54,085 bases of DNA from an uncultured Clostridia bacterium (GTDB lineage: Bacteria > Bacillota > Clostridia > Oscillospirales > Acutalibacteraceae): NCBI GenBank assembly GCA_946627725.1, contig CAMOVW010000001.1, positions 1-54,085 of the forward strand, in the 5' to 3' direction. Under the pieces are notes generated by a model that was given only the letters and a program-made list of their open reading frames with translations, had not been told where the DNA came from and searched no databases. Shown piece after piece: positions 1-54,085 of the stretch (position 1 is the stretch's first letter; each line of letters opens with the position of its first letter). Position numbers and translations under genes: made by a program.

Positions 1-55
1 CCCGCCGGTTACGGGCCGAAACGATCCCGCCGGGATCGTCGCGGAAAACCGCAAC
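1..55. repeat. 55-nt terminal direct repeat, identical to 54031..54085 (circular-contig style overlap)
   Basis: Read directly: nt 1-55 (cccgccggttacgggcc...gcggaaaaccgcaac) recur exactly at 54031-54085. Joining the ends recreates the gene-element-gene layout seen at 2231-2347 and 53294-53413. Confidence 0.85.
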
Positions 56-87
56 ACCACGAAATCATTTTGAAGGAGGCCAACACC

Positions 88-987
88 ATGAAATACACCG
101 AGAAAACCGCCGCCGCCGTGCTCAATTCCCTGCTCCGCGCCGCGCGGAAAACGCCCCGCGAAAGCCTGCACGACGCCTGGACGGATGAACAAGGCCGGAC
201 TTGCGCAATGGATGGATACCGCGCCTATTGTCTGAACGCCGCCCCCGCCGGGATGAAAGCAACTTGGACGAGCCGCCCCGATCCGGCCCGCGCTGCCGCC
301 CGCGCCGCTGATAATAATAAAATCCTGGCCCACGTTTTCAACGCCCTGGACGCCGGAAAAACGGTTGAAATGCCAGCCCCGGACGCGGACGCCGTGAAAT
401 CATTCATGGCCGCCGACAAGGAGCAGGGCGGGCGCGGGGTATATGACCTTGGAAAAGACTTTCCCGCCGTGAACGTCAAGTATTTGTGGGATATAATCAG
501 GCTTTTCCCGGTTGCGAAATGGTATGTTCTGGCCGATCCTTACGCCCGCATGGTTAGCCCCGTTTTCATCGTCGCCGACGAGGGCCGCGCCTGCCTGCTG
601 CCGATCCGGCAGGATAACAAGCCCTGGAAAGCCCCGGAAGCGCCCGCCCCGGCCCCTGCCGAAAAGCCCGCCGCCGATGAACGCCCCGAAAACATTCCCG
701 CCGATGAAAACCCCTGGAAGTGTGACTATTTTGTGTACTCCCGCCCCACCGGCGAAAAGCGTTTCCTGTTGACAAATCTCCGCGAGGGCACCGTGGGCAT
801 GAAAAAGTTTTACGCCCCGATGTACAAGGAAAAGCACCTGGAGCAAATCAAGGAAATGCTTGACCTTGCCGCCGCTGAAAACCCCGGCGCGGTTTTCCAG
901 CTCCGCAAGCTGGACGGGAAAAAGGTTGTATATACCGCCGTCCCGACGGTTACGCCGGAAATGTTCGCCGCAATGATCGCCGCTTGA
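88..987 (+). CDS. early protein with sliding-clamp (DnaN)-like N-terminal region; function unknown
   Basis: ORF 70..987 trimmed to ATG 88 behind GGAGGCCAACACC. Clamp-like strings AMDGYRAY, FPAVNVKYLWDII and ACLLPIR, then a Pro/Ala linker (ERPENIP) and a C-terminal domain. Confidence 0.65.
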   Translation: MKYTEKTAAAVLNSLLRAARKTPRESLHDAWTDEQGRTCAMDGYRAYCLNAAPAGMKATWTSRPDPARAAARAADNNKILAHVFNALDAGKTVEMPAPDADAVKSFMAADKEQGGRGVYDLGKDFPAVNVKYLWDIIRLFPVAKWYVLADPYARMVSPVFIVADEGRACLLPIRQDNKPWKAPEAPAPAPAEKPAADERPENIPADENPWKCDYFVYSRPTGEKRFLLTNLREGTVGMKKFYAPMYKEKHLEQIKEMLDLAAAENPGAVFQLRKLDGKKVVYTAVPTVTPEMFAAMIAA

Positions 988-1040
988 TTATTCCATCCGC
1001 CCGCCCGTGGGCATTGTACGCGGGCAAGGAGGCCGCCCCG

Positions 1041-1457
1041 ATGAAGTATTATTATTTATATATCCCCGCTTTGGTTTTCTTCCTGCTGCCCCTGCTCAAC
1101 GGCCTGCGTGCTTCCGTCGCGGCCCGCGCCGCTGCCCGCGAGAAGGAAGCGAAGCGCGCCGCCGCTGCCGCTGCGAAGGAGGCCGCCGAGCAGGAGAAGA
1201 AAGCCCGCCAGGAGGCCCGCGCCGCCGCTGCCACCGATCCGGCCCAGGAGCCGAAGCGCAAGCGCGGACGCCCGCGCAAGAATCCCCCGCCGGAGCAACG
1301 CCCCGAAATCATTTTGCCAGAGGAAGCGCCCGCCCCCGTCCAGGAGGAGCCGCCCGCCGTCCAGATTATGACGATCCAGCGCGCAAGCATTTTCCCGAAT
1401 GTTGACAAGATGGAGCCGCCCTGCACCCCGGAAGAATTTGCGAAAAAATTTTGCTGA
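1041..1457 (+). CDS. membrane-anchored Ala/Lys-rich protein with AT-hook-like KRKRGRPRKNP
   Basis: ORF 984..1457 trimmed to ATG 1041 behind GGAGG. N-terminal hydrophobic helix YLYIPALVFFLLPLL, a charged coiled region and the linker QRPEIILPEE. Confidence 0.6.
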   Translation: MKYYYLYIPALVFFLLPLLNGLRASVAARAAAREKEAKRAAAAAAKEAAEQEKKARQEARAAAATDPAQEPKRKRGRPRKNPPPEQRPEIILPEEAPAPVQEEPPAVQIMTIQRASIFPNVDKMEPPCTPEEFAKKFC

Positions 1458-1530: not shown

Positions 1531-1570
1531 AACACAACGCCGCAAAAACATTTTGAAGGAGGCCAACACC

Positions 1571-2233
1571 ATGAAAACCACCATCAACGCCATGTGCCCC
1601 GATTGCACCCGGTTCGGGAAGGATTGCCAGGGGACGAGCTGCCAGACCTGGACGGGCTGCATTTACAAGCAGCGCGCCGACGCCGACAAGACGATCTGCA
1701 AGCCGAAGCTGATTTATCAGCCGGACGCGCCCGAAGATGCCCGCTACAATGTCCAGCTGTGGCACAGCTACGACGGCGGCAAGACCTTCTATTATGCCGG
1801 TTATGGTCGCTTCTTCAAGGACTTCTACGAGGCGGAAGCGTGGCGGAAGCAGCAGCGTAAAAACCTGTCCTACGATCTCATGTTTGGCTGCCTGGGCAAC
1901 GGGACAACGGTTTGCAACATGGCCCGCGAGGAGCACGGCGACTATCCCACCATTGCCCACATTGACGATTGCGGCGCGGTTCGCTGGTACGTCGATGCAA
2001 AGAAGCTCCCGCCCTACGTCCTGGAGGACGTAAACGCCGCCGCGCTGCGGGATATGGCGGAGTTCAAGGAAAAGTTTTTGAAGCTCACCCCGCTGGAAGC
2101 CCTGCGCGCCGTGTATGATACTTTCCCCATGAACACGATCCGGAACGACATAAGCAAAGAGACTGTCCCGGCGCTGTATGAAATCTATACCGAGTTCATG
2201 GCCCAGCATGGCTACATGATGCCGGAACAGTAA
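1571..2233 (+). CDS. hypothetical early protein (Cys-rich N-terminus)
   Basis: ORF 1451..2233 trimmed to ATG 1571 behind GGAGGCCAACACC. Balanced amino-acid composition. Confidence 0.7.
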   Translation: MKTTINAMCPDCTRFGKDCQGTSCQTWTGCIYKQRADADKTICKPKLIYQPDAPEDARYNVQLWHSYDGGKTFYYAGYGRFFKDFYEAEAWRKQQRKNLSYDLMFGCLGNGTTVCNMAREEHGDYPTIAHIDDCGAVRWYVDAKKLPPYVLEDVNAAALRDMAEFKEKFLKLTPLEALRAVYDTFPMNTIRNDISKETVPALYEIYTEFMAQHGYMMPEQ

Positions 2234-2347
2234 CGCCGCAAAATCATTCCGCCCGATGATGGCCCGCCGGTTACGGGCCGAAACGATCCTGCCGGGGTCG
2301 TCGCGGAAAACCAACGCCGCAAGATTATTTTCAAGGAGGCCAACACC
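2231..2347 (+). repeat. long-form intergenic element, copy B (two hairpins 2261-2279 and 2283-2301)
   Basis: Shares AACGCCGCAAAATCATTCCGCCCGATGATGGCCCGCCGGTTACGGGCCGAAACGATCC...GCGGAAAACC...AAGGAGGCCAACACCATG with the copies at 53294 and 54003/1. Confidence 0.8.
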
Positions 2348-2827
2348 ATGACCGTCAACAAAACCCGCTATTCCAGCTATAACTACAAGCGCCTTGCGCC
2401 CTTCCTGGATGCCGTGCGCGAGCTGCCGGAACAGTCCTTCACCTTCACCCGCGAGGGCTACGAGCCGCTTTCCATCGAGAACCTGGAATACACCTTCAAG
2501 GGCTACCCCGTTTGGGGCATGATGCACACCTACGACATGAACGGCGATACCATGCGCGACCCGGACATGACCTTCCTTGTGGACTTCTCAACCGGCAATA
2601 TCATCCCGCACACCTTCCAGCAGGATAATTGCCCCTTCACGAAGTATGGCACCCTGTATCAGGAGGTTTGGGAGGACGAAGGACATTGGCGGCCCAGCCT
2701 GCGCGCCCAGCTCGACCGCTTCTTGAAAGACTGGATCACCAACATTCTGGATCAAGGCTTCAAGCCGGAGCAGGCCGCGGAAAACGAAGTCACCCCGGAA
2801 CAGTTTGCCGAAGCTGTCACCGAATAA
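2348..2827 (+). CDS. hypothetical early protein
   Basis: ATG behind the conserved GGAGGCCAACACC. 159 aa with ordinary composition (YDMNGDTMRDPDMTF motif). Confidence 0.7.
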   Translation: MTVNKTRYSSYNYKRLAPFLDAVRELPEQSFTFTREGYEPLSIENLEYTFKGYPVWGMMHTYDMNGDTMRDPDMTFLVDFSTGNIIPHTFQQDNCPFTKYGTLYQEVWEDEGHWRPSLRAQLDRFLKDWITNILDQGFKPEQAAENEVTPEQFAEAVTE

Positions 2828-2860
2828 CGCCGCGAAATCATTTTGAAAGGAGCTTTGACA

Positions 2861-3238: not shown

Positions 3239-3289
3239 TCAATAATTAGCCCGCCCGTGGGCATATACGCGGGCAGAAGGAGGTACACC

Positions 3290-3553
3290 ATGATTTTTCA
3301 CATTACGCCGAACATCTGCGAAACTGCCCTTGTCGTCGATGAATTGCCGGAAATCGGCAAACCGTTCTGCTGCGGCCCGTATATCGCCGCCCGCGTCCTG
3401 TCCTTGGAGCCGTGCCCGTACACTTGCCCGCAAGACGAGCACCAGGAAGCCCTGCAATATGCTGTGTGGCGTGTCAACTATGAACCCGTTTCCGACCCGC
3501 ACGATGATTATTTCTACGTCGCCATTCATGAGCCAGAATCCGAAACCATATAA
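3290..3553 (+). CDS. hypothetical early protein
   Basis: ORF 3257..3553 trimmed to ATG 3290 behind GAAGGAGGTACACC. Confidence 0.6.
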   Translation: MIFHITPNICETALVVDELPEIGKPFCCGPYIAARVLSLEPCPYTCPQDEHQEALQYAVWRVNYEPVSDPHDDYFYVAIHEPESETI

Positions 3554-3586
3554 CGCCGCGAAATCATTTTGAAAGGAGCCAACACC

Positions 3587-4354: not shown

Positions 4355-4561
4355 GTGCTGAAAGGATTTTATATCATCCAGCGTTTCGATGGAGAAAAGT
4401 GGGTGGATTATTCTTGCCATTACTTCTTTTCACCGATAAGCAAGGTGTTAAGGCAATACAAGTATTTCAAGGAGAAACACCCAGCGGAACGGTTTCGGAT
4501 TGCGAAAGGTAAAGAGGACATAGGGGCTTTCTTCAACCACGCGACGCAAGGCCGCGACTAA
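4355..4561 (+). CDS. hypothetical small protein (lower-GC segment)
   Basis: GTG start behind GAAAGGGG. 68 aa. The local drop in GC suggests an acquired gene. Confidence 0.5.
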   Translation: MLKGFYIIQRFDGEKWVDYSCHYFFSPISKVLRQYKYFKEKHPAERFRIAKGKEDIGAFFNHATQGRD

Positions 4562-4578
4562 TCCGACCAAACCATTCT

Positions 4579-4617
4579 AACGTGCATCTTTCCCGAAAAG
4601 GTGCGCGTTATTTTTAT
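4579..4617 (+). terminator. intrinsic terminator closing the plus-strand early operon
   Basis: 13-bp stem AACGTGCATCTTT / AAAGGTGCGCGTT (two G-U pairs), 5-nt loop, then ATTTTTAT. Confidence 0.7.
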
Positions 4618-4792
4618 GCCCCCCAGGAGGCCCGCGCGCTCACTCCCGGCTTTGTCATAATAGGAGGTTGTGTTAAACGCATACGGAGGAAATCGCTTCC
4701 TATTTTATGCGCTAAAAAATAGGCCGGTTTTGGGTGTTGTGTTTTACCATGCCCCGATATGACAAACACAAGCCCCCACGGCCTGCAAATAG

Positions 4793-5055: not shown

Positions 5056-5660
5056 GCCCGCGCCCGCTTTCCCGTCAGCATGTTCAGCTTCATAAGGCTT
5101 TCGTCGATATTCTCCTGGATTACGCCGATGTAAACGAGCGTTTCCCGCTGGTAGCTGTGGCACAATATCCTTTGCAAGCTCACCACGTCGCCGGTCATTT
5201 TGTAATAGTGATAGCCGAAGGTCTTTCGCAGCGTATGGCACCCGATCCGTTCCTCCACGCCTGCCTCACGGGCTATGTGATTGATGATCTGATAGCACCG
5301 CTGCCGCGATATGGGCCGGTATTTGTGGGTAGCACTGTCCTTCTGGCGGCTCTGGAAGATATACTCGTCCGCCTTTCTTCCGGCCAGCAGGCGGTTGATC
5401 TCCCGCCGAGCCTGGGGGTTTATCAGTATGCGGGCTTCCTTCCCGGTTTTCTTGGCCTGTATCTGCGCGTAGTCCTTGCCCCTCAAATCCTGCACCTTGA
5501 ACCGCCGGAAGTCACTCACGCGCAGGCTGGTATTAAAGCCAATCAGCAAGATCAATTCCCAGCACACTTCCCCCATTTTCCTGTGCTTGTCGTGCTCCCG
5601 CGCAATGTCGTAACACTTTTGCAATACATCCAGGTCGCGGATGGGCTGTACAACCTTCAT
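5052..5660 (-). CDS. small tyrosine recombinase (phage-integrase family catalytic domain only, 202 aa)
   Basis: Strings LRVSDFRRF, CHTLRKTFG and LCHSYQRETLVYIG fit the R..HxxR..H..Y catalytic pattern. RBS GGAGTG. Confidence 0.85.
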   Translation of the reverse strand: MKVVQPIRDLDVLQKCYDIAREHDKHRKMGEVCWELILLIGFNTSLRVSDFRRFKVQDLRGKDYAQIQAKKTGKEARILINPQARREINRLLAGRKADEYIFQSRQKDSATHKYRPISRQRCYQIINHIAREAGVEERIGCHTLRKTFGYHYYKMTGDVVSLQRILCHSYQRETLVYIGVIQENIDESLMKLNMLTGKRARA

Positions 5661-8164: not shown

Positions 8165-8314
8165 TTATCCTCCTTTTTTGCGCTTTCGTCGTATTCCGTG
8201 CGGATAGTGCGTCCATGCGATGCCGACAATGCAAACCACGCTGAAAAGAATAAATAAAAGGGCCAGCGCCCCTATAAAGATCGCTGCTTCCAGCAGTTCA
8301 CGCGGCAATTTCAT
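8165..8314 (-). CDS. 49-aa single-TM protein (holin-like), absent from the ORF track
   Basis: Hand translation MKLPRELLEAAIFIGALALLFILFSVVCIVGIAWTHYPHGIRRKRKKGG. ATG 8314 overlaps the RT stop as ATGA. Ends 3 nt before the endolysin GTG. Confidence 0.55.
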   Translation of the reverse strand: MKLPRELLEAAIFIGALALLFILFSVVCIVGIAWTHYPHGIRRKRKKGG

Positions 8315-9654
8315 AAATAGACCACCTCCGCGCTGGCGCACCAGTCGTCATAGCGCGCCCTGATGTCCTCCTCCATCCCGTCGAACGGCTCCACGCCTCG
8401 CACAACGAGCATTTCCACGTCGTAGTCTGTCGCGCCATCCTCCGTCGACAGTGGCAGCACATGGGGCCGCAGATACACGTCCACCGTGCCGTCCTCCTGC
8501 TCCTGGATGGTATAAAAATGCCGCCTCCCCGGCGGCTGATCGCTCTCAATATTCATATTGTCGCACCTTTGAAGTACAAAGTGTTCCTCGATCCAGCGGA
8601 TCATGTTGTGACCGTTACAATGCTTGCACATCCCGATATAGCAGATCACGCTTTCCATCGCCGCGTCATAGCTGATTTGCCATGCGGCAAAGGCCTCCAT
8701 GATGAAGCGCAGGCTCCGCTTGATGTGCGTCGTGGTCTTTCGCCTCATGCGGATGCCGTGCGGCGTCAGCAGATAGCCCACGAACTCAACCGGGGCCGTC
8801 GCCTTTTGGATTCGGCTTTTCGGGCTGATGTCAAGCAGCAGCTCGTCCCGTAGGAAGGTTTCGATGGCGGCGAATATTCGCTTTGCGTTTTCTTTGCCTT
8901 TGACAAGGATGCAGAAATCGTCCATGTAGCGCACATAGTAGTGTACTTTCAGCGTGCGCTTGATGAATTGATCCAGCTTATCCAGAAACAGGTTGGCCGT
9001 TTCCTGGCTCGTCAGGTTGCCGATGGGCATACCCACATCATAGAGCCGCCGCCATCGTGGGCAATCATCCGGCTTCATCCCCGGAGGCAGGCCGAAAGGC
9101 ACGTCCGGGTTATTGATGATCGTCCGCATAAGCCAGCGAAACCAGGCGTCGTCTGATACCTCGTCGTAGGTATTCAGCACCTTCCCGTGTTCAACCCGGT
9201 AAAAGTATTTGCTGATGTCGCCCTTGATAAGATACCATTCGTCCGCGTCCGGCTTCCGGCTGATCTTCTGCTGCCAGTTTTGCAGGCACTCCGCCGCTGG
9301 CAGCGTTCCTTTGCCCTTCCGGCACCCGTAGCTGTGCGTGATATATCGCTTGTCCAGATATGGGTTGATTTGCCGGTAGATGGCCCATTGCACAACGCGA
9401 TCCCGAAAGCCCAGCGCCATGACGAGCCTCGGCTTCGGGTAGCGTACATAAAATTCCCGATATGGCCCCACCTTGTAGGTCATATCCAGTAGCTCTTTCT
9501 GTATCTGGTGCAGATTCGCGCCCAGGTTGAAAGAGAAGTCCAAAACCTCATTGCGATACCGTTTCCCCTTTGCGGCGTCCCGGTAAGCGCCCATCAGGTT
9601 TTCAAAATCACAGATGCGGTCTTTCAGATTGTGCAGCCCTTCCAAAACATTCAC
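8311..9654 (-). CDS. diversity-generating retroelement reverse transcriptase
   Basis: RT motifs PIGNLTSQ and YVRYMDDF. Sits downstream of TR. Start uncertain: GTG 9654 is favoured, although the ORF stays open to 9870. About 85-95 extra C-terminal residues. Confidence 0.9.
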   Translation of the reverse strand: MNVLEGLHNLKDRICDFENLMGAYRDAAKGKRYRNEVLDFSFNLGANLHQIQKELLDMTYKVGPYREFYVRYPKPRLVMALGFRDRVVQWAIYRQINPYLDKRYITHSYGCRKGKGTLPAAECLQNWQQKISRKPDADEWYLIKGDISKYFYRVEHGKVLNTYDEVSDDAWFRWLMRTIINNPDVPFGLPPGMKPDDCPRWRRLYDVGMPIGNLTSQETANLFLDKLDQFIKRTLKVHYYVRYMDDFCILVKGKENAKRIFAAIETFLRDELLLDISPKSRIQKATAPVEFVGYLLTPHGIRMRRKTTTHIKRSLRFIMEAFAAWQISYDAAMESVICYIGMCKHCNGHNMIRWIEEHFVLQRCDNMNIESDQPPGRRHFYTIQEQEDGTVDVYLRPHVLPLSTEDGATDYDVEMLVVRGVEPFDGMEEDIRARYDDWCASAEVVYL

Positions 9655-9917
9655 CCCGCCCTGTGAACTGCCGCGCGTGACGTGTTCCGTCAGGCATAGA
9701 CTGTAATGCCCCAAAATCGCTTTAGGGTATGCTGCGGACAGCCATAGCCCGTTGCCCTTCCGGGCGCTTCGCGGTGATTCCTGCCGCGTGTTTCCTGCGG
9801 AGCGTTCTTGCCGCCGCGCGTCAGGATTTTTGTTTAGCCCCTTCGGGCCGAGGAAACGCACCCCTCCCATCAGCGGATGGCCGCTGATTCGTAATCTCGC
9901 GGCGCGTAATATATGCT
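9655..9917 (-). ncRNA. DGR spacer region between TR and RT (probable part of the TR-containing RNA)
   Basis: No RBS-supported coding. Hairpin ATCAGCGG-CCAT-CCGCTGAT on the minus strand near 9870-9890. The position matches the Sp region of known DGR RNAs. Confidence 0.5.
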
Positions 9918-10037
9918 GGGAGCGGGGGCGGCACCCATAGTTGTTGTTGGCGTTGCCGCGCTCGTTGTTGGCATTGACATAGCCAAGCCCCGCGTTGCTG
10001 CCGTTGTTGTAGTTGCCGCCGCGACGGGGGAAGCGCT
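9918..10037 (-). repeat. DGR template repeat (TR)
   Basis: 120 nt collinear with VR (offset 728 nt). The sense strand is rich in AAC codons (…GGC AAC TAC AAC AAC GGC AGC AAC…AAC GCC AAC AAC AAC TAT…). Confidence 0.9.
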
Positions 10038-10640: not shown

Positions 10641-11855
10641 TCAGAGGGAGCGGGGGCGGCACCCATAGTAGTTGAAGACGTGGCCGCGCTCGTCGAAGGC
10701 ACTGACATAGCCAAGCCCCGCGCCGCTGCCGTTGAGGAAGGAGCCGCCGCGACGGGGGAAGCGCTCGCCTGCCACGAAGTTGACGTAGTAATAGCCGGGG
10801 GTATCGTCGCCCGCTCCGGTCTTGATAAGGCCCAGCTCGTAAACGATGCTCGGCACATAAGGCAGGCGCGTGGTGTTCACCGCGACCGTGCTGAAACTCT
10901 CGCCCTTGCTGCCCACGGTCAGGTCGTCGCATTGCGTGTCCAGGGTGATATGCCCGTTCAGCCAGTTCCAATGAAGCGTGCCAGCCGTGCCGGGGGCGAC
11001 GAGGGTATAGCCGTTGTCGCTGGTGTTCGGCAGGATCGCGCGCCACGCGGCGGAAGAAGCGGACAGGTCGGCGTCCGGGTCGGCGGCGTTGTTGTTCTCC
11101 AGGATTTGCAGCTCACAGTCCACGATGCGGTAGCCGTACTGCTGTTCCAGGCTGGAGCCGATGATGTCCGCCAGCAGGGCCGGGTCGCTGCCCAGATACC
11201 AGTCCAGCGGGCCGGTGCCGTTCAGCGTCCGATAGCCGGTCTGATGGGCCGCGTCGGGCGTGCCGTCGTTGCTGGTGCCGCCCACAAACTTGCCCTTCTC
11301 CCAATAGGTCGGGGCCAGGTCGGGCCGCAGCTCCGCCGCCGTGGTGTGGGCAATCAGGCACTTGTAAATGTACCCGTTGTAGGCTCTTTCCGTGTTCACG
11401 GACAGCGCCTTGCCGGTTTCCCAGGCGCTCGCGTCCTGGTGTGCCTGCCCCCAGGCGGTATTTCCGTGCGGCTTCCAGCCGTTTTTCTGCGCCAGCAGCT
11501 TGATAAAGCCGTAGTCCGCACAGGTCATGCCGGTAATGCCGGGGCCAGCCAGCTTCATGCGGGAAAGGCACTGATCCGCGCCCAGGGTCCGGGCCGGGTT
11601 GATGTTCGGCAGGCTCACCAGCGCGCCGCCGGAAACGCCGTTCTCGCCGCCCTTGTACTTGCCCAGCAGAATGTAATCCTGCTCCACGCCATTGATGATA
11701 AAGGCCGGGTGCGTGTGCTCCGGCAGCCCCGCCACCAGATCGGAGCTTTTCATTTTGGGGAATTTGACGAAGATACCGGCCACGTTGCCGTCCGCGTCGT
11801 ACTTCACGACGTTACCGTACTTCTTCGCCAGAAATTCAAGAGGGCTGTTATTCAT
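10641..11855 (-). CDS. DGR target protein: distal tail-fibre / receptor-binding protein with C-terminal variable region
   Basis: 404 aa. The last 40 codons are VR (…RRGGSFLNGSGAGLGYVSAFDERGHVFNYYGCRPRSL). Follows the fibre genes. Internal YNGYIYKCLIAH…YWEK carbohydrate-binding-like motif. Confidence 0.85.
   Translation of the reverse strand: MNNSPLEFLAKKYGNVVKYDADGNVAGIFVKFPKMKSSDLVAGLPEHTHPAFIINGVEQDYILLGKYKGGENGVSGGALVSLPNINPARTLGADQCLSRMKLAGPGITGMTCADYGFIKLLAQKNGWKPHGNTAWGQAHQDASAWETGKALSVNTERAYNGYIYKCLIAHTTAAELRPDLAPTYWEKGKFVGGTSNDGTPDAAHQTGYRTLNGTGPLDWYLGSDPALLADIIGSSLEQQYGYRIVDCELQILENNNAADPDADLSASSAAWRAILPNTSDNGYTLVAPGTAGTLHWNWLNGHITLDTQCDDLTVGSKGESFSTVAVNTTRLPYVPSIVYELGLIKTGAGDDTPGYYYVNFVAGERFPRRGGSFLNGSGAGLGYVSAFDERGHVFNYYGCRPRSL
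10646..10765 (-). repeat. DGR variable repeat (VR)
   Basis: 120 nt versus TR gives 16 mismatches. 15 are at TR sense-strand adenines. The 3' end TGCCGCCCCCGCTCCC is identical in both. Confidence 0.9.
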
Positions 11856-41641: not shown

Positions 41642-42373
41642 TCACCCCCTGTCGTCCCAGGGGAGCGGTACAAGCCCCTCCGCGCCAGTGAAGTCGCTGT
41701 CCAGATCGACAAGCCCGAAGCCTCCGCGCTGTCGTTGCCGCATTTGATCGACGATGGCCGCCGCCCGCGCGCGCCCGCGCAGCGGTTCCCCTGCATTTTC
41801 CCTTGTTTCTGCTCCTGCTTTTACCGTCCCCTGGTTTATATTTATATTAAATACATCAGGGTTAGAGGAAGAAGATAAGGGATCGCCTACACAATCAGGT
41901 GCATTTTTGCCCCTGGTCGGCGGTAGATCGGGAACAGTACCGGGTGCGGTATCGCCTACACAATCGGGTACACAATCACCTACACTATCGCCTACACAAT
42001 CGGGTGCAATTCTGTCCCCGTTTCCCTGCGTATCAGGTACAATTTTGTACCCGATGTAACGTAGATAAAAAATGCGGTACTCTGGATCGCTCTTGCGGCC
42101 ATCACCTTTCTTAAAGTCCACCAGGCCGATTTGCTTAAACCGGTTTCTGATTGTCCGTATATTTCTTTCTTCCAAACCAGACCATGCCGCTATTTCCGAA
42201 TTTGACACCGGGAAAAAGTCGTCGGGCCACTCATGGTTCGGGCTTCTCTGTGCCCATGTGTTCGCAACATGGAACAACCCCAGCCAGAACATCCTTTCGT
42301 AGCTTGTCAGACCGTTTCTTCTGCCAAATTCCATGAACAGGTTGATTTGTTGAACGAAATTAACTTGGCTCAT
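41642..42373 (-). CDS. replication initiator / replisome organiser-like protein
   Basis: Winged-helix-like N-terminus. The central region is encoded by the iterons (APDCVGD repeats). Confidence 0.6.
   Translation of the reverse strand: MSQVNFVQQINLFMEFGRRNGLTSYERMFWLGLFHVANTWAQRSPNHEWPDDFFPVSNSEIAAWSGLEERNIRTIRNRFKQIGLVDFKKGDGRKSDPEYRIFYLRYIGYKIVPDTQGNGDRIAPDCVGDSVGDCVPDCVGDTAPGTVPDLPPTRGKNAPDCVGDPLSSSSNPDVFNININQGTVKAGAETRENAGEPLRGRARAAAIVDQMRQRQRGGFGLVDLDSDFTGAEGLVPLPWDDRG
41835..42008. other. candidate origin: AT-rich tract plus three 21-nt iterons inside the initiator gene
   Basis: tttatatttatattaaatacatc at about 41836-41858. TCGCCTACACAATC(A/G)GGT(G/A)CA at 41883-41903, 41952-41972 and 41988-42008, with a partial copy at 41973-41987. 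Confidence 0.55.
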
Positions 42374-50356: not shown

Positions 50357-51480
50357 ATTATCCGCGCGCGCACGCGCGAGGGGGCCGTTTGTGGCCGTCC
50401 AGGTGAATGAAATTCATAAAAAAAATAAAAAAATTAGTGAAATGGTGGGCTCCCAGCGCCCGCGAGAGAGGAAAATGACGCGCGCAGTACCTACACGCGG
50501 AAGCGGGCGCGCGCGTACACGCGCGGGCGTGCGAGCGCGCGGCGCGACGCGAGCGCAGGGGCGCGGGGGCGCGTGGGGGCACGCGGCGCGTGACGCAGGG
50601 GCGCAGGGGCGCGCGGATGCGTAGCGCGCTGGCGTTGCGCGTTGCGCGGTAAAAGCAACCCCGTAGGGGTTGCATCCTGGGGCGTGTAGCGCCCGCGTGA
50701 TGGCGCGGTGCGTGGCGCGGGGGCCGCGTGTCCAGGGGCGCGGCGCAGCGGGGCGCGGATCGCGGGCGGGGCCATGGGCGGCCATGGGCGCGGCGCGGGC
50801 CGTCGGGGCAATTCGGCAGCAGGCCGCCGGGGATCGCCGCCGGGGGCCGGGGCCGTCGGGGACGTGTCCAGGATCGCCGCCGGATGGATCGCCCGCCGGG
50901 ACGGTTGACAGCTCCGGCGACGTGTCCAGGCAGCAGGCAGCTCCTCGCGCGCGCCCGCATGGGTAGCCGGGGCGACGTGTCCAGGATCGCCGCCGGGGAT
51001 CGCGGCAGGCAGCAGGGGCCGCCCGCGTCCAGGGGGGCAGGCGTCCAGGGGCGCGGCAGGGGCCGCCGGGGATCGCCGCCCGTAAAGGGGCAGCATGTTT
51101 TTATTTCATTCGGCCCTGATTTTTTCCGCCGGGGATCGCGGGCAACGTGTCCAGGGGGCAGCAGGCCGCCGGGGCCGGGGACGTGTCCAGGGGCAGCAGG
51201 CCGCCGGATGGATCGCGGCAGGCAGCAGGGGCCGCCCGCGTCCAGGGGGCCGGATTATTTCAGCAAGGGCAGCAGGCCGCCGGGGCCGGGGACGTGTCCA
51301 GGGGGGCAGCAGGCCGCCGGATGGTTCGCGGCAGGCAGCAGGGGCCGCCCGCGTCCAGGGGGCCGGATTATTTCAGCGGGGCAGCGGGCCGCCGGGGCCG
51401 TGTCCATTTCGACGGGCGGCAGGGGCGCGGCGCGCATGGGCGGCGCGGGCAGGATCGCGCTCACGCATATACGCGGGAAC
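50357..51480 (+). repeat. extremely GC-rich, G-strand-biased degenerate repeat array (non-coding)
   Basis: (CG)n-like runs at 50357-50640. At least 11 same-strand copies of CG(T/C)GTCCAGG, with recurring GCAGCAGGCCGCCGG and GGATCGC units. All six frames are open and Arg/Gly/Pro-rich. Confidence 0.8.
51157..51377 (+). repeat. two near-identical tandem units of about 110 nt inside the array
   Basis: 51157-51264 versus 51268-51377 differ only by a GG insertion and an A/T change. Each splits into two sub-units of about 55 nt. Confidence 0.85.
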
Positions 51481-51678: not shown

Positions 51679-51731
51679 TTGACAAACGGGGTACACCGTG
51701 ATAATATGGGCACCGTGGACGGGGTACACCG
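51679..51731 (+). promoter_or_regulatory. early promoter P3 with two direct ACGGGGTACACCG repeats
   Basis: TTGACA 51679-51684, 17-nt spacer, TAATAT 51702-51707. The 13-mer occurs at 51686-51698 and 51719-51731. A-tracts upstream. Near-duplicate of P1. Confidence 0.75.
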
Positions 51732-51764
51732 AACACAAACGACAAACGACAGGAGGCCAACACC

Positions 51765-52019
51765 ATGAAAAGCTACACCGAAATCAAGCAAGCGCTCCGC
51801 CGGGAAACAAGCGATTCACTCCGCTATTTCACGAAATCATTTCTTGCGACGTACACCGCCGCCCTGGAAGAAAACAAGCGCAACGCGGAAAAGGGGATCG
51901 ACGACAGTTATTGCGATAATGGTATCTGGACGCGGCACGCATGGGACGCCGTGCGCAAGACGGATTTTTACCAGAAAAGCGGCTCCGCCTATTGCGTATT
52001 CCTGCAAATTGTAGCTTGA
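51765..52019 (+). CDS. hypothetical early protein
   Basis: ATG behind GGAGGCCAACACC, 84 aa. Confidence 0.6.
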   Translation: MKSYTEIKQALRRETSDSLRYFTKSFLATYTAALEENKRNAEKGIDDSYCDNGIWTRHAWDAVRKTDFYQKSGSAYCVFLQIVA

Positions 52020-52119
52020 CAAGCCGAAACGCGGCGCGGGCCGCGTCCGCCGGGGATCGCCTCCCGGCGCTGATGATGGCAGGCGAACACAACACCGAAT
52101 TTTTAAGGAGGCCAACACC

Positions 52120-53016
52120 ATGAAGGATCTGTATTCTGAAATCACCAACGGTATCATTGAACAGCTGGAGCAGGGCGTTATCCCGTGGAAAAAGCCCTGG
52201 ACGGGCGTCAATTCCGGCGCTATCAGTCACGCGACGGGCCGCGCGTATAGCCTGCTGAATCAGATGTTGCTTGCCCGCCCCGGTGAATATATCACCTTCA
52301 ATCAGTGCAAGCAGGAGGGCGGCAAGGTCAAGAAGGGCGCGAAGTCAAAAATTGTCGTGTTCTGGAAGGTGCTGCCCCGCGAAAAGAAGGACGCCGACGG
52401 AAACATTATCACCAACGCCGACGGCAAGCCGATCATTGAAGGGCTGCCCGTGCTCCGTTACTTCCAGGTGTTTCATATCGACGATTGCGAAGGGATCGCC
52501 CCGAAATGGGAAAACAAGCTGCCCGCCGTCGCAAGCCCCGACGAACGCGCCGAAAATGTTTTGATGGATTATGTACGCCGGGAAAACATTCGGCTTGAAA
52601 ACGTGATAGGCGACAAGGCGTATTATTCCCCCTCCTGTGACCTTATCCGGCTGCCGATCATGGAGCAATTCGACAGCACCGCCGAATATTACGGCACCGC
52701 GTACCATGAAGCAACCCATAGCACCGGCCACGCAACGCGGCTAAACCGTTTCACCGGGGACGCTGCCGCCGCCGCTTTCGGCTCCGAATCGTACAGCAAA
52801 GAGGAGCTTGTCGCGGAAATCGGCTCCGCCTGCTGCCTGCATGAATTGGGCCTTGAAACGCCGTCCAGCTTCAAAAACTCCGCCGCCTATATTCAGTCCT
52901 GGCTCCGCGTTTTGAAGGACGACAAGCGAATGATTATCAGCGCCGCCGCCCGCGCCGAAAAGGCCGTCAAGCTGATTTTCAACATCACCGACAGCAAGCA
53001 GGCGGACGGGGAATAA
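52120..53016 (+). CDS. ardC: ArdC-like antirestriction protein (ssDNA-binding N-domain + zincin-like protease domain)
   Basis: GVIPWKKPW N-terminal motif and HEATHSTGH (HExxH) in the C-terminal half. Confidence 0.85.
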   Translation: MKDLYSEITNGIIEQLEQGVIPWKKPWTGVNSGAISHATGRAYSLLNQMLLARPGEYITFNQCKQEGGKVKKGAKSKIVVFWKVLPREKKDADGNIITNADGKPIIEGLPVLRYFQVFHIDDCEGIAPKWENKLPAVASPDERAENVLMDYVRRENIRLENVIGDKAYYSPSCDLIRLPIMEQFDSTAEYYGTAYHEATHSTGHATRLNRFTGDAAAAAFGSESYSKEELVAEIGSACCLHELGLETPSSFKNSAAYIQSWLRVLKDDKRMIISAAARAEKAVKLIFNITDSKQADGE

Positions 53017-53065
53017 TCCCCGCCCCCTGCAACGCCCCGAAATCATTTTGAAGGAGGCCAACACC

Positions 53066-53296
53066 ATGAAAAAGCTGCTTGCAATCGTCGCCGCCCTGGC
53101 CCTTGTCGCCGCTGCTTCATTCGCCGCCGGACGGGCCGCCGGTATCCGGCACGCGATAGAGGACGCCGAAATATACACGGTTGAATGTTACGATCCCGAC
53201 AACCCCGACGAAAACGCCCGCCCCGACGGCACCGATCAAACAATCTATATCGAGCTGGACGGGGAAATATACGAGCACGGCATGTATCAGGGATGA
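53066..53296 (+). CDS. small membrane-anchored/secreted protein
   Basis: ORF trimmed to ATG 53066. Begins MKKLLAIVAALALVAAASFAAG. Confidence 0.6.
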   Translation: MKKLLAIVAALALVAAASFAAGRAAGIRHAIEDAEIYTVECYDPDNPDENARPDGTDQTIYIELDGEIYEHGMYQG

Positions 53297-53413
53297 ACGC
53301 CCCGAAATCATTCCGCCCGACGATGGCCCGCCGGTTACGGGCCGAAACGATCCCGCCGGGATCGTCGCGGAAAACCGCAACGCATCGAAATCATTTTGAA
53401 GGAGGCCAACACC
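53294..53413 (+). repeat. long-form intergenic element, copy C (hairpins 53325-53343 and 53347-53365)
   Basis: Contains the same 55-mer as the window ends (53327-53381). Confidence 0.8.
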
Positions 53414-54001
53414 ATGAAAACCGTTTTCACCTTTACCGCCGACAGCATCACCGTCAAGGGCAAGACTTTCCCCGCTGAATACTCCGTTACCCCGTCCGGC
53501 TCCGTGTTCGTGTTCGTCCAGGAGGACGGCAAGCAGGAAAAAACCCGTATTCGCTTCAACCCAGATCATGCCGAATACGCCGCCGCCCTGGCCGCCGCCC
53601 GCAACGAGCAGCCCGCCCCCGCTGCCGATGAACGCCCCGAAATCATTCCCGCCGCCGATCCGGCCCCCGCTGCCGTGGAAGAAACGCCCGCCGCCCCCGC
53701 TGCCGATCCCGCCCCCGTCGCCGACGGAAAAGCGACGCGCGGCCCCGTCCCGGAAAAGACTTTCATCGGCGAAAGCATCACCGGCAACGGCTGGAAAATC
53801 CTTTTTGACGGCGAAACGAGCCGCACACGGATTATCTTTGAGAGCAAGCCCACGGACGCCGCCCGCGCTGCCCTGGACAAGGCCGGTTTCTTCTTCTCCG
53901 CCGCTATGAATAGCTGGAATAAGAAATTGACCTTCAAGGCATACCGCGCCGCGCAAGCCCTGGCCGGTGAATTGTCCGCCCTGTACCCCGCCGCCGCTTG
54001 A
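53414..54001 (+). CDS. hypothetical early protein (beta-rich N-domain, Pro/Ala linker, GFxxS…W C-domain)
   Basis: ORF trimmed to ATG 53414. Linker ADERPEIIPAADP. The C-terminus DKAGFFFSAAMNSWNKKL resembles plasmid/phage DUF3560-type domains. Confidence 0.65.
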   Translation: MKTVFTFTADSITVKGKTFPAEYSVTPSGSVFVFVQEDGKQEKTRIRFNPDHAEYAAALAAARNEQPAPAADERPEIIPAADPAPAAVEETPAAPAADPAPVADGKATRGPVPEKTFIGESITGNGWKILFDGETSRTRIIFESKPTDAARAALDKAGFFFSAAMNSWNKKLTFKAYRAAQALAGELSALYPAAA

Positions 54002-54002
54002 C

Positions 54003-54085
54003 GGCGCGGGAACATTCCGCCCGACGATGGCCCGCCGGTTACGGGCCGAAACGATCCCGCCGGGATCGTCGCGGAAAACCGCAAC
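54003..54085 (+). repeat. long-form intergenic element, copy A (continues at nt 1-87 if the ends are joined)
   Basis: Hairpins at 54029-54047 and 54051-54069. Followed at nt 56-87 by the conserved leader of gene 88..987. Confidence 0.75.

What the first reader, a model, noticed from the sequence alone, without database searches (positions are those of the whole stretch)
51735..54085. Strand-specific 17-nt motif AACGCCSCRAAAWCATT repeated about 12 times, in leaders and inside coding sequence
Copies are all on the + strand and all lie in the plus-strand early operon: 680, 1297, 1536, 2232, 2313, 2826, 3552, 53031, 53296, 53379, 53631, plus a weaker copy at 58.
In seven or more intergenic sites the motif continues into an almost invariant leader, …GAAATCATTTTGAAGGAGGCCAACACCATGAA.
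In three proteins (88..987, 1041..1457, 53414..54001) the same nucleotides encode the inter-domain linker (E/Q)RPE(I/N)I(P/L).
A nucleotide motif kept in both coding and non-coding contexts and on one strand only suggests an RNA- or DNA-level function. Examples would be a shared translational operator in the style of T4 RegA, a processing site, or a recombination junction for module shuffling. Chance seems unlikely.
Basis: seen in the sequence. Interest (0 to 1): 0.7.

Follow-up and report, generated by a model that had tools for sequence, protein, structure and literature searches.

The report
Junction motif in ribozyme-studded phage operon
A 17-base sequence found at the stop codon of many genes in one operon of a family of gut phages marks the seams where genes, protein domains and self-cleaving hammerhead ribozymes have been swapped in and out, although what reads the sequence is still unknown.

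Summary
AACGCCSCRAAAWCATT occurs 9 times exactly and 14 times within two mismatches, always on the + strand (0.12 expected). All copies lie in one operon that runs across the ends of a circular assembly.

In relatives chosen without using the motif, about 100 copies lie on the operon strand and none on the other.

In 39 of 61 such copies, the motif's first two bases complete the upstream stop codon. What follows varies: an SD leader, a hairpin, a promoter, a terminator or a ribozyme.

The window has one type II hammerhead (Rfam) and three type I hammerheads, each bracketed by motif copies. A relative has a pistol ribozyme where the window has the type II hammerhead.

Cassette-sized indels between close relatives are bounded exactly by the motif. 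In-ORF copies sit at domain-swap points, with frozen synonymous sites.

So it is a nucleotide-level junction at which modules recombine. Its position-specific conservation implies a sequence-specific reader, acting on DNA or on RNA, that I could not identify. It resembles PeSLs, stoperators and start-associated sequences, but belongs to none of them.

The parts
53031..53047 (+). 17-mer, exact copy, 14 nt after the ArdC-like gene's stop, followed by the SD leader and the start codon at 53066. It is the left boundary of a cassette that is absent from relative L205.
53296..53312 (+). 17-mer, exact copy. It overlaps the TGA of gene 53066..53296 by one base, and its last UU forms part of stem I of the following hammerhead. 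It is the right boundary of the same cassette.
53311..53378 (+). Type I hammerhead ribozyme: stem I UUCCGC/GCGGAA, core CCGACGA, GAAA, predicted cut between C53366 and G53367, with a pseudoknot tail AACCG.
   Evidence: 88.9 bits
53379..53395 (+). 17-mer (2 mismatches) directly after the hammerhead, followed by the SD leader and the start codon at 53414.
53631..53647 (+). 17-mer, exact, inside ORF 53414..54001. It is read as ERPEII and lies in a predicted disordered inter-domain linker.
54000..54016 (+). Degenerate 17-mer (4 mismatches). The gene's TGA stop occupies the same register as TAA does at other copies.
54015..54082 (+). Type I hammerhead. It runs into the 55-nt assembly overlap, so it is the same element as window 1..52. 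Predicted cut between C54070 and G54071.
53..69 (+). 17-mer (2 mismatches) after that hammerhead, followed by the SD leader and the start codon at 88.
680..696 (+). 17-mer, exact, inside ORF 88..987. It is read as ERPENI and lies between an N-domain that is widespread in the family and a C-domain found in only some relatives.
1297..1313 (+). 17-mer, exact, inside ORF 1041..1457. It is read as QRPEII and lies just after an AT-hook-like RGRPRK. The C-terminal tail differs between relatives.
1536..1552 (+). 17-mer, exact, in the 5' UTR about 30 nt downstream of the promoter at 1478-1506, followed by the SD leader. It is the left edge of a 39-nt repeat that bounds an extra 579-nt cassette in L205.
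2232..2248 (+). 17-mer, exact. Its first AA completes the TAA stop (2231-2233) of gene 1571..2233, and its last UU lies in stem I of the next hammerhead.
2247..2314 (+). Type I hammerhead (core CCGAUGA). Predicted cut between C2302 and G2303.
   Evidence: 85.9 bits
2313..2329 (+). 17-mer (2 mismatches) after the hammerhead, followed by the SD leader and the start codon at 2348.
2826..2842 (+). 17-mer, exact. It completes the TAA stop (2825-2827) of gene 2348..2827 and is followed by a variant SD leader.
3552..3568 (+). 17-mer, exact. It completes the TAA stop (3551-3553) of gene 3290..3553 and is followed by the SD leader.
52022..52088 (+). Type II hammerhead ribozyme in the junction before the ArdC-like gene. 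Predicted cut after C52047. It is followed only by a degenerate remnant of the motif.
   Evidence: (56.5 bits; gathering score 37)
999..1025 (+). 'Y' hairpin directly upstream of an SD. It is a second recurrent junction module; in relatives it usually follows a 17-mer.
3249..3274 (+). Second 'Y' hairpin directly upstream of an SD.
51679..51707 (+). First operon promoter (sigma-70-like), with two ACGGGGTACACC boxes. The same promoter type occurs at 1478-1506 and 3808-3836. The 17-mer is not part of these promoters.
4578..4618 (+). Terminator-like hairpin plus T-run that ends the operon. The last gene's TAA (4559-4561) is followed by a much-decayed motif copy (11 of 17 positions).
   Evidence: sequence read
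388..404 (+). Weak copy (2 mismatches) inside ORF 88..987, in a different reading frame. It is conserved in L003 and L206. Significance uncertain.
52574..52590 (+). Weak copy (2 mismatches) inside the ArdC-like gene, conserved in L001 and L206. Significance uncertain.

Best explanation
The 17-mer is the conserved core of a standard junction between cistrons in a modular accessory (anti-restriction / early) operon of a family of temperate gut siphophages.

Shown:
- It belongs to the 3' end of a cistron. Its first two bases usually complete the TAA stop of the upstream gene.
- It is followed by one of a small set of interchangeable modules: an SD leader; a type I hammerhead, then a second copy and an SD; a hairpin plus SD; a promoter; or a terminator.
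- The same oriented sequence ends most cassettes, and recombination between copies has inserted, deleted and replaced whole cassettes.
- Where the stop base is G or C instead of T, the motif is read through in the same frame as a linker, (E/Q)RPEII. C-terminal protein domains differ between phages at exactly that point.

Inferred:
- Exchange works by short-homology recombination between direct repeats, within one genome or between co-infecting relatives, as proposed for T4 PeSLs.
- The position-specific conservation (AACGCC-N-C-N-AAA-N-CATT) implies that the sequence is also read by a sequence-specific factor.
For: Strand and locus specificity:
- Window: 14 to 0.
- 30 loci anchored on a neighbouring recombinase gene rather than on the motif: about 98 to 0, all on the operon side.
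- Six loci anchored on another operon protein at 56% identity: 7 to 0 in L351.
- 17 metagenome loci: 89 to 0 at up to 3 mismatches.

Shape of the conserved block: information drops to background immediately outside positions 1-18.

Link to the stop codon: in 39 of 61 copies at ORF ends, the stop (36 TAA, 3 TGA) occupies the xAA register. The same holds at 7 of 11 gene ends in L351.

Recombination at the motif:
- Ends of homology blocks are enriched 2.5-3.4 fold near the motif. Blocks start at -1/0 and end at +16..22.
- The window has a 265-nt cassette between copies 53031 and 53296 where L205 has a single copy; the overlap is exactly 17 nt.
- L205 has an extra 579-nt cassette bounded by motif plus leader. 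L210 and L212 show a similar event.
- Among prophages 94-98% identical, almost all block boundaries in the variable region fall on motif copies. One is a 230-nt cassette found only in L352 and flanked by two copies.
- In L003 a gene is replaced between two copies, with near-identical junctions on each side.

Domain swaps: the N-domain of the 88..987 protein is found in 10 relatives but its C-domain in only 3 of them. In L212 the same N-domain is joined through an in-frame motif copy to a different tail. In L047 the homologous ORF ends in TAA at a motif copy.

Nucleotide-level rather than peptide constraint: across 21 in-ORF copies the synonymous third positions are essentially invariant, while the second position of codon 5 is T, A, C or G. 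Three of 10 orthologous linkers lack the motif altogether.

Homogenisation within genomes: identity at the variable positions is 0.536 within genomes and 0.479 between them, with 0 of 2000 permutations as high.
Against: - Homology alone does not explain why positions 7, 9 and 13 vary in every genome while the other positions are nearly fixed. It also does not explain why a 17-nt sequence stays the same in phages whose flanking DNA is unalignable (L047). Some direct function is probably selected, and I have not identified it.
- Seventeen bases is short for homologous recombination, and I did not recognise a single-strand annealing recombinase in the genome.
- Some indels use the repeated SD leader instead of the motif. 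One natural deletion (L001) used a 7-9 nt microhomology 40-60 nt downstream of two copies.
- Tandem copies at 26-28 nt spacing with similar spacers look more like multiplied binding sites than like recombination joints.
- No orthologous position was caught switching between stop and sense among 56 aligned pairs. The junction-to-linker conversion is therefore an inference.
Confidence: 0.55

Rival explanations
1. It is a DNA site for an orientation-dependent roadblock, like a stoperator. A phage protein would bind the asymmetric 17-bp site after most cistrons and stop RNA polymerase moving in the operon direction. This would keep the accessory operon silent in the lysogen and stop read-through into the convergent recombinase and lysis genes. 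Recombination at the sites would then be a by-product.
For: - The site is asymmetric and bipartite, with conserved blocks about one helical turn apart and free positions between them.
- Its orientation is strictly tied to the direction of transcription.
- It lies in short intergenic spaces and is tolerated inside ORFs, with frozen synonymous sites.
- The phage is temperate, with a serine integrase, and relatives are integrated prophages with the operon at one prophage end next to host genes.
- Tandem doublets and triplets lie at operon ends, before terminators and upstream of promoters. In L015 the array is upstream of the only strong rightward promoter.
- There is a precedent: Cluster A repressors bind 13-bp asymmetric sites as monomers and block elongation only in one orientation (PMC9283540).
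Against: - No candidate binding protein was found. The most conserved operon protein has no recognisable nucleic-acid-binding fold.
- The operon promoters carry a different repeated box, ACGGGGTACACC, and in the window the 17-mer does not overlap them, unlike L5 operators.
- Sites occur only in this operon and not genome-wide.
- It does not explain why copies bracket the hammerheads.
Confidence: 0.2
2. It is a sense-strand RNA site: a single-stranded element in the 3' trailer or 5' UTR of each cistron. It would be read by a host or phage factor such as an endoribonuclease, a global translational repressor or an mRNA-decay factor. It would work alongside the ribozymes to cut the polycistronic transcript into units or to shut early messages off.
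For: - The operon is clearly built for RNA processing. It has four hammerheads in the window, and pistol and type II hammerhead are interchangeable at the same junction.
- The motif abuts the ribozymes on both sides.
- Strand specificity follows naturally.
- The short leaders are predicted to be unstructured.
- From my own knowledge, the 3' end C|AUU fits the RNase E preference RN|WUU.
- In several relatives, doublets and triplets lie between a stop codon and the next SD.
- The 2019 review notes that protein partners of bacterial ribozymes are unknown (PMC6765202).
Against: - Predicted accessibility of the motif is no higher than with shuffled flanks.
- Cleavage at in-ORF copies would destroy those messages, yet those copies are conserved.
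- Some arrays lie where sense transcription is doubtful: upstream of the promoter in L015 and after the terminator in L218.
- A 17-nt single-strand specificity is unusual for an RNase.
- Only 29% of copies sit next to an SD, which argues against a RegA-type operator.
Confidence: 0.15
3. It is a site-specific recombination site, making the operon an integron-like cassette array. The conserved small tyrosine recombinase encoded convergently at the operon end would cut and rejoin at the 17-mer.
For: - There is one oriented site at the 3' end of each cassette, and indels leave exactly one copy.
- A 197-202 aa Phage_integrase-family gene lies next to the operon in every relative examined, including those not selected through it.
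Against: - The 17-mer has no dyad symmetry or attC-like paired boxes and is too short for two arms plus a 6-8 bp spacer (direct reading of the sequence).
- The recombinase consists of a catalytic domain only and scores far below every Xer, integron-integrase and invertase cut-off.
- It has its own candidate site nearby: a perfect 9-nt inverted repeat flanking 98 nt, also present in L218 and L351.
- Other indels use the SD leader or microhomology.
Confidence: 0.04
4. It is simply part of the hammerhead ribozyme (an extended stem I or a tertiary contact), and the other copies are relics of lost ribozymes.
For: - The motif's last UU pairs in stem I.
- Most type I hammerheads have a full or degenerate copy directly upstream and a copy 4-8 nt after the pseudoknot tail.
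Against: - Only 2 of the 17 bases pair. The tertiary contact is supplied by a covarying pseudoknot between loop II and the 3' tail, which lies outside the motif.
- Several hammerheads lack an upstream copy. In the L351 lineage the downstream copy is degenerate.
- Type II hammerheads and the pistol ribozyme work without it.
- Most copies are nowhere near a ribozyme.
Confidence: 0.03
5. It is a functional peptide motif (ERPEII) in linkers, with the intergenic copies as pseudogenised remnants. Alternatively, it is a product of very recent duplication with no function.
For: - Three proteins per genome carry the peptide in the same frame.
- An MPTase-PolyVal peptidase is encoded in the operon.
Against: - In the in-ORF copies the synonymous sites are frozen while the amino acid at codon 5 varies among I, N, T and S.
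- Three of 10 orthologous linkers lack the motif.
- Most copies are non-coding.
- Conservation across phages with unalignable flanks rules out recent duplication.
Confidence: 0.02

Closest known systems
PeSLs (promoter-early stem-loops) of T4-type phages: mobile regulatory cassettes that mediate modular shuffling (PMC2839356)
   Same: Short conserved intergenic repeats, all in one orientation, flank small accessory genes in a hyperplastic region. Indels and replacements between close relatives are bounded by the repeats. The proposed mechanism is short-homology recombination between repeats.
   Different: PeSLs are 50-100 bp composites of a sigma-70 promoter and a terminator stem-loop, and each cassette is its own transcription unit. 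This element is 17 nt, has no promoter or stem-loop, overlaps the stop codon, lies within one polycistronic operon, also occurs in-frame inside genes at domain boundaries, and brackets ribozymes.
Stoperators of Cluster A mycobacteriophages (PMC9283540)
   Same: Short asymmetric sites, many per genome, in short intergenic spaces. Their orientation is strictly correlated with the direction of transcription. The phages are temperate siphophages.
   Different: Stoperators are 13 bp, occur genome-wide on both arms, also serve as the operator at the early promoter, and have a known repressor. Here the sites are confined to one operon, are absent from its promoters in the window, and have no known binding protein.
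Start-associated sequences (SAS/ESAS) of Cluster K mycobacteriophages (PMC3203893)
   Same: An asymmetric motif of unknown function in 11-19 copies, in one orientation, confined to the non-structural half of the genome. It is conserved across subclusters next to non-homologous genes, sometimes contains the upstream stop codon, and a subset has an extra upstream element.
   Different: SAS contains the SD and sits 3-7 bp from the start codon. This motif lacks an SD and is tied to the upstream stop rather than the downstream start. The 'extended' element here is a hammerhead ribozyme supported by covariation, whereas the ESAS repeats do not support RNA pairing.
Clusters of hammerhead ribozymes flanking genes in prophages (Perreault et al. 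2011, PMC3088659; review PMC6765202)
   Same: Several hammerheads flank single genes or short gene blocks in a phage operon. They use loop-tail pseudoknots. One ribozyme sits upstream of an anti-restriction gene. Unrelated ribozyme classes are interchangeable at the same site.
   Different: In the passages I read, those papers do not describe a conserved non-ribozyme companion sequence. Here a 17-mer brackets the type I hammerheads and also marks ribozyme-free junctions.
Integron attC sites and gene cassettes
   Same: One oriented site lies at the 3' end of each mostly promoterless cassette. Cassettes are gained and lost precisely at the sites. A tyrosine recombinase gene lies next to the array.
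   Different: There is no attC-like imperfect inverted repeat or folded structure. The recombinase lacks IntI hallmarks and sits convergently at the far end of the array. No attI or Pc equivalent was identified.

Membership tests
Hammerhead ribozyme, type I (the insert between paired motif copies) | Catalytic core C3-U4-G5-A6-N7-G8-A9 ... G12-A13-A14, with an A15.1-U16.1 pair and H17 at the cleavage site | tested here: met
   All core positions are invariant in 17 aligned elements except position 4, which is U in 11 and C in 6. The three window copies have C4, and the activity of that variant is unknown.
Hammerhead ribozyme, type I (the insert between paired motif copies) | Three helices around the core, with stems II and III closed by loops and stem I open, supported by covariation | tested here: met
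   91% of cells are paired, against 48% or less when partners are slid. Fourteen pairs show compensatory changes, and 0 of 500 shuffles reach these values. The covariance model gives 30 hits, all on the operon strand, plus hits in six independent loci.
Hammerhead ribozyme, type I (the insert between paired motif copies) | Match to the curated Rfam hammerhead models | tested here: not met
   Rfam reported nothing for these elements at E up to 1 in the window or at gathering score in relatives. The call rests on my own rule-based parse and model.
Hammerhead ribozyme, type I (the insert between paired motif copies) | Self-cleavage activity | not testable with these tools
   Needs in vitro transcription or end mapping.
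Hammerhead ribozyme, type II (52022-52088) | Score above the Rfam gathering threshold, with full-length alignment and a canonical core | tested here: met
   56.5 bits against a gathering score of 37, model positions 1-66 of 66, with CUGAUGA and GAAA present.
Stoperator | Asymmetric site in one orientation relative to transcription, in short intergenic spaces | tested here: met
Stoperator | The same site also serves as the operator overlapping the early lytic promoter | tested here: not met
   The three window promoters carry ACGGGGTACACC boxes, not the 17-mer. In a few relatives the motif abuts a -35 element.
Stoperator | Bound by the immunity repressor, with orientation-dependent block of elongation | not testable with these tools
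   No candidate protein was identified.
Start-associated sequence (SAS) | Lies 3-7 bp upstream of the start codon and contains the SD core | tested here: not met
   The motif has no SD. Where a start follows, it is 18 nt downstream. Only 37 of 128 copies are followed closely by an SD and ATG.
PeSL | [quoted passage not shown] | tested here: not met
   No promoter consensus lies in or around the 17-mer. The short junctions fold no better than shuffles.
PeSL | Flanks accessory ORFs, and indels or replacements between close relatives are bounded by the repeats | tested here: met
Integron attC / IntI | attC made of two pairs of inversely repeated boxes able to fold as a hairpin | tested here: not met
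   The 17-mer has no dyad symmetry (direct reading). No inverted partner lies within the junctions.
Integron attC / IntI | An adjacent integron-type integrase | tested here: not met
   The 202-aa protein scores 37.9 bits against a cut-off of 265 for the integron-integrase model, and it lacks an N-terminal domain.
RegA-type translational operator | The site overlaps or adjoins the SD and start codon of the regulated genes | tested here: not met
   Most copies adjoin the upstream stop. Many are followed by a ribozyme, hairpin, promoter or terminator.

The most novel reading that the evidence does not exclude
The 17-mer is the recognition site of a dedicated, still unidentified factor that works together with the self-cleaving ribozymes. 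Together they would form a cassette system in which standard seams let a phage plug in, remove and separately express anti-defence genes. The seam would be read both at the DNA level, to mobilise cassettes, and at the RNA level, to mark where each cistron ends before the ribozyme or hairpin that starts the next message. If so, this family would be a defined and testable setting for the open question of what bacterial and phage self-cleaving ribozymes are for, and would provide the first sequence-defined companion element for them.
Probability: 0.15. Interest if true: 0.85.

Novelty: new variant of a known kind. Interest (0 to 1): 0.62.

Why it matters
**Phage mosaicism.** The old idea that conserved linker sequences guide modular exchange has few clean examples. 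Here a 17-nt seam is caught bounding very recent gene gains and losses among 94-98% identical prophages. The same seam, read in frame, marks where protein domains have been exchanged.

**Ribozyme biology.** The role of the many hammerhead, twister and pistol ribozymes in bacteria and phages is unresolved (PMC6765202). This operon places them in standard slots, shows two unrelated classes substituting for each other in front of the same anti-restriction gene, and gives them a conserved neighbour that can be mutated, pulled down and mapped.

**Practical use.** The motif is a simple marker for finding this kind of accessory (probably anti-defence) operon and its cassette boundaries in gut viromes.

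Tried and rejected
- **Genome-collection scan with the bare 17-mer.** It returned only single, scattered chance matches in the rows shown, roughly as expected for 596 Gb.
- **Annotated phage collection.** No relatives found.
- **Loose array pattern in viral contigs.** Almost all hits were chance; only L015 and the L218 contig were real arrays.
- **RNA accessibility.** The motif is no more unpaired than with shuffled flanks, so the test says nothing either way.
- **Read-through or polyprotein idea.** In the window, TAA, motif, leader and ATG are in frame (36 nt). In relatives the spacing is 16, 17 or 19 nt, so the frame relation is not conserved. Rejected.
- **Promoter for a phage-specific polymerase or sigma factor.** Rejected.
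- **Immunity operator.** The promoters carry a different box.
- **Antisense partner.** No complementary copy exists in the window at up to 3 mismatches.
- **Orthologous stop-to-sense switch.** None among 56 aligned motif pairs.
- **Recombinase able to use short homology.** None recognised by Pfam or PHROGs.
- **Candidate reader protein.** The most conserved operon protein has no Pfam, NCBIfam or PDB sequence match. Its predicted structure has no significant fold match, with a best E of 0.41.
- **'Y' hairpin.** It has no Rfam match and only weak covariation.
- **Literature.** One search timed out.

Full report
**1. The observation**

The degenerate 17-mer AACGCCSCRAAAWCATT has 14 matches within two mismatches. 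All are on the + strand, against 0.12 expected from dinucleotide-preserving shuffles. Nine of them are exact. At three mismatches the count is 18 to 0, and minus-strand hits appear only at four mismatches.

The last 55 bases of the window are identical to the first 55. The window is therefore a circular assembly of 54,030 bp. The two groups of copies lie in a single + strand operon that starts at a promoter near 51679 and ends at a terminator near 4578.

The rest of the genome is an ordinary temperate siphophage. It has a lambda-type terminase and portal, SSB, a helicase loader, dUTPase, a C5 methylase, a GH25 lysin, a holin and a large serine integrase. The operon encodes an ArdC-like anti-restriction protein and about a dozen small proteins of unknown function.

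**2. It is a family trait**

I fetched relatives by two routes that do not use the motif.

- Thirty viral contigs were anchored on a small tyrosine recombinase gene that lies convergently just beyond the operon. They carry about 98 copies within two mismatches, all on the operon strand and all on the operon side of the anchor. None lie on the other strand or in the 10 kb on the other side. This holds even where the anchor protein is only 68-76% identical. One relative with 3.4 kb of operon-side sequence has none (L213).
- Six gut-metagenome contigs were anchored on a homologue (56% identity) of the 53414..54001 protein. They include integrated prophages. They show the same synteny and 7 copies to 0 in L351.

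A metagenome scan for closely spaced copies added 17 more loci, with 89 sense copies and no antisense copies at up to three mismatches. Contigs such as L047 share no blastn-detectable similarity with the window's operon, yet carry ten copies.

**3. Anatomy**

Across 128 family copies, conservation begins abruptly at motif position 1 and ends at position 17-18. Both flanks are at background. Positions 7, 9 and 13 vary in every genome, and the remaining positions are nearly fixed.

The motif is not primarily a leader element.

- Of 61 copies at the 3' end of a long ORF, 39 have the stop codon (36 TAA, 3 TGA) in exactly the register where the motif's first two bases are the last two bases of the stop.
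- In L351 this holds at 7 of 11 gene ends.
- What follows the motif varies: an SD leader and start codon (37 copies), a conserved hairpin directly upstream of an SD (about 18), a 65-nt structured insert (6), or a terminator-like hairpin with a T-run (9). In some relatives a promoter follows, with the motif abutting its -35 element.
- In the window, stop-overlapping copies lie at 2232, 2826 and 3552, with a degenerate one at 54000. The distal third of the operon has only decayed remnants.

**4. The structured insert is a hammerhead ribozyme**

Rfam finds a type II hammerhead at 52022-52088, scoring 56.5 bits against a gathering score of 37. It lies in the junction before the ArdC-like gene.

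That led me to re-read the insert between paired motif copies at 53311, 54015 and 2247. Its layout is stem I UUCCGC, core C(U/C)GAYGA, a hairpin, GAAA, a second hairpin, UC followed by the cut site, and GCGGAA. A rule-based scan found 24 such elements in the family.

On an alignment of 17 of them:

- All catalytic core positions are invariant except position 4 (U or C).
- 91% of cells are paired, against 48% or less when partners are slid.
- Fourteen pairs show compensatory changes, and none of 500 shuffles reaches these values.
- Loop II pairs with the tail after stem I, with covariation. This explains the conserved GTCGCGGAAAACC.

A covariance model built from the alignment finds 30 matches in 331 kb, all on the operon strand. 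These include elements not used for training and all six independent gut loci. Rfam's own models do not call these elements. The three window copies have C at core position 4, so their activity needs testing.

Relatives carry type II hammerheads at the ArdC junction. One (L209) carries a pistol ribozyme at that same place.

Clusters of hammerheads flanking genes in prophages, loop-tail pseudoknots and a hammerhead upstream of an anti-restriction gene have been described before (PMC3088659). The function of such ribozymes is still regarded as open (PMC6765202).

**5. How the 17-mer relates to the ribozymes**

The upstream copy's last two U residues form the outer pairs of stem I. A second copy starts 4-8 nt after the pseudoknot tail and is followed by the SD. 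Each type I hammerhead therefore looks like a cassette sitting between two copies of the seam.

The ribozyme does not need the motif:

- Only two of the 17 bases pair.
- Several hammerheads lack an upstream copy.
- In the L351 lineage the downstream copy is degenerate.
- The type II and pistol ribozymes have at most a remnant of the motif after them.

**6. Recombination at the motif**

The ends of blastn homology blocks between family members are enriched 2.5-3.4 fold near the motif. Blocks begin at position -1/0. They end at +16 to +22, or at the start codon.

Specific events carry the signature of exchange between direct repeats:

- The window has a 265-nt unit (leader, 76-codon gene, stop) between copies 53031 and 53296. 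L205 has one copy at that site, and the aligned blocks overlap by exactly 17 nt.
- L205 has an extra 579-nt unit bounded by motif plus leader, starting at motif position 0.
- L210 and L212 differ by a 253-nt unit with a 23-nt overlap covering the motif.
- In L003 the gene between copies 1536 and 2232 is replaced by a strongly diverged allele, while the junctions on both sides stay 98% identical.
- Among four gut prophages that are 94-98% identical elsewhere, nearly every block boundary in the variable part of the operon falls on a motif copy. One example is a 230-nt cassette present only in L352, flanked by two copies.

Not every event uses the motif. Two indels use the repeated SD leader. One deletion variant (L001) joined two cassettes at a 7-9 nt microhomology about 40-60 nt downstream of two copies.

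**7. The in-ORF copies**

The in-ORF copies classified here, 21 after the two weak copies inside the ArdC-like gene are set aside, are read in the frame that the stop codon would occupy, with G or C in place of T. A few weaker copies lie in another frame. One base therefore separates a gene junction from a fused linker.

They lie in low-complexity linkers. In the 53414..54001 protein the predicted structure has two confident domains joined by a disordered segment (residues 66-109), and the motif lies within it.

The domains on either side are not always the same. The N-domain of the 88..987 protein is found in ten relatives, but its C-domain in only three of them. In L212 the N-domain is joined through an in-frame copy to a different 44-codon tail. 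In L047 the homologous ORF ends in TAA at a motif copy. The 1041..1457 protein behaves similarly. The C-domain of the 88..987 protein matches a PHROG of stand-alone 62-residue proteins.

Across the 21 in-ORF copies the synonymous third positions are essentially invariant: GAA never GAG, ATT never ATC. The second position of codon 5 is T, A, C or G, giving I, N, T or S. Three of ten orthologous linkers lack the motif entirely. The constraint is therefore on nucleotides and not on the peptide. One caveat is that the copies were selected by similarity to the motif.

I did not find an orthologous position caught switching between stop and sense. Descent of the linkers from junctions is therefore an inference.

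**8. What reads it**

Shared homology explains the exchange. It does not explain the fixed pattern of free and constrained positions, nor the identity of the sequence across otherwise unalignable phages. Some sequence-specific reader is implied.

Points favouring a DNA-level reader, like a stoperator:

- The site is asymmetric and bipartite.
- Its orientation is tied to transcription.
- It is tolerated inside ORFs.
- The phage is temperate, and the operon sits at a prophage end next to host genes.
- Tandem doublets and triplets, spaced 26-28 nt with similar spacers, lie at operon ends, before terminators and upstream of promoters.

Points favouring an RNA-level reader:

- The operon is obviously built for RNA processing.
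- The motif abuts the ribozymes.
- In some relatives, doublets lie between a stop and the next SD.

Tests that failed to decide:

- Predicted accessibility equals the control.
- No candidate binding protein emerged.
- The operon promoters carry a different repeated box.

The neighbouring small tyrosine recombinase is an unlikely reader. The 17-mer has no dyad symmetry. The protein consists of a catalytic domain only and scores far below family cut-offs. A perfect 9-nt inverted repeat flanking 98 nt lies next to its gene.

Variable positions are modestly more alike within genomes than between them (0.536 against 0.479, with 0 of 2000 permutations as high). That fits gene conversion among copies, or co-evolution with a reader.

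**9. Comparison with known systems, and verdict**

In what it does for genome evolution, the motif works like a PeSL of T4-type phages (PMC2839356), but it has neither a promoter nor a stem-loop. In form it resembles the stoperators of Cluster A phages (PMC9283540) and the start-associated sequences of Cluster K phages (PMC3203893). It fails a defining feature of each: it is not at the promoter-operator position, and it is not at the start codon and contains no SD. Its arrangement recalls integron cassettes, but without attC structure or an IntI-type enzyme.

I file it as a new variant of a known kind: a stop-associated, frame-preserving junction motif in a ribozyme-punctuated phage operon.

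- Shown: the observation, its conservation, its association with stop codons, the ribozymes, and exchange at the motif.
- Inferred: the recombination mechanism, and the existence and nature of a reader.

Noticed in passing
window 52022-52088; 53311-53378; 54015-54082 (= wrap to 1-52); 2247-2314: Four hammerhead ribozymes (one type II called by Rfam, three type I called from core conservation and covariation) lie in the gene junctions of the operon.
   Followed up: yes
L209 17950-18017 (-), compared with window 52022-52088 and L206 7815-7880: A pistol ribozyme occupies the junction in front of the ArdC-like gene in one relative, exactly where the window and L206 have a type II hammerhead. Unrelated self-cleaving classes are interchangeable at one site.
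   Followed up: partly
window 8311-9870 (-), 9918-10037, 10646-10765: A diversity-generating retroelement. It comprises a reverse transcriptase gene, a 120-nt template repeat next to it, and a variable repeat at the 3' end of ORF 10641..11855. Fifteen of 16 mismatches fall at template adenines.
   Followed up: yes
window 1-55 and 54031-54085: An exact 55-nt terminal overlap, typical of a circular contig from a k=55 assembly. The true length is 54,030 bp.
   Followed up: yes
window 5052-5660 (-) and 4651-4659 / 4758-4766: A 202-aa tyrosine recombinase consisting of a catalytic domain only lies convergently at the operon end in every relative examined. Next to it, a perfect 9-nt inverted repeat (TTTGTCATA / TATGACAAA) flanks 98 nt, and the same repeat is seen in L218 and L351. 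This may be a small invertible switch.
   Followed up: partly
window 1485, 1518, 3815, 51686, 51719: The box ACGGGGTACACC, a near-palindrome, occurs once or twice in each of the three operon promoters and nowhere else. It is a likely operator for an operon-specific regulator. L351 has an analogous but different box (CACAACACCGTGT).
   Followed up: partly
window 41927-41998: Six tandem 12-nt units (ATCGGGTACACA-like) lie inside the DnaD-like/HTH gene 41642..42373 (-). They resemble the promoter boxes (GGGTACAC). They may be origin iterons.
   Followed up: no
window 50830-51420: A very GC-rich, apparently non-coding region with repeats of about 113 nt lies between the serine integrase and the operon promoter. 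It may be the attP region.
   Followed up: no
window 999-1025 and 3249-3274; about 33 copies in relatives: A conserved hairpin (GCCCGCCCGTGGGC...ACGCGGGC, with variants) lies directly upstream of the SD, in the same slot as the hammerheads and usually after a 17-mer. It has no Rfam match and only weak covariation. Its function is unknown.
   Followed up: partly
L015 2739-2869; L218 6147-6215; L358, L360, L362, L368, L370, L374: Tandem doublets to quadruplets of the 17-mer at 26-28 nt spacing have similar spacers (TCAYCCGRC-like). In L015 a minus-strand promoter-like site within the array would produce an RNA carrying the antisense of the motif.
   Followed up: partly
L001 11560-11790 compared with window 53095 and 2880: A natural variant deletes about 3.8 kb (nine genes) by joining two cassettes at a 7-9 nt microhomology. 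It leaves an 11-codon hybrid ORF.
   Followed up: yes
window 1041-1457 (residues 72-85): An AT-hook-like KRKRGRPRK lies directly before the in-ORF motif copy in a small protein with a predicted N-terminal membrane segment.
   Followed up: no
L208 7026-7236 (+); L214 6428-6692 (+): Rfam calls a group I intron and an RT-2 RNA in the late regions of two relatives.
   Followed up: no
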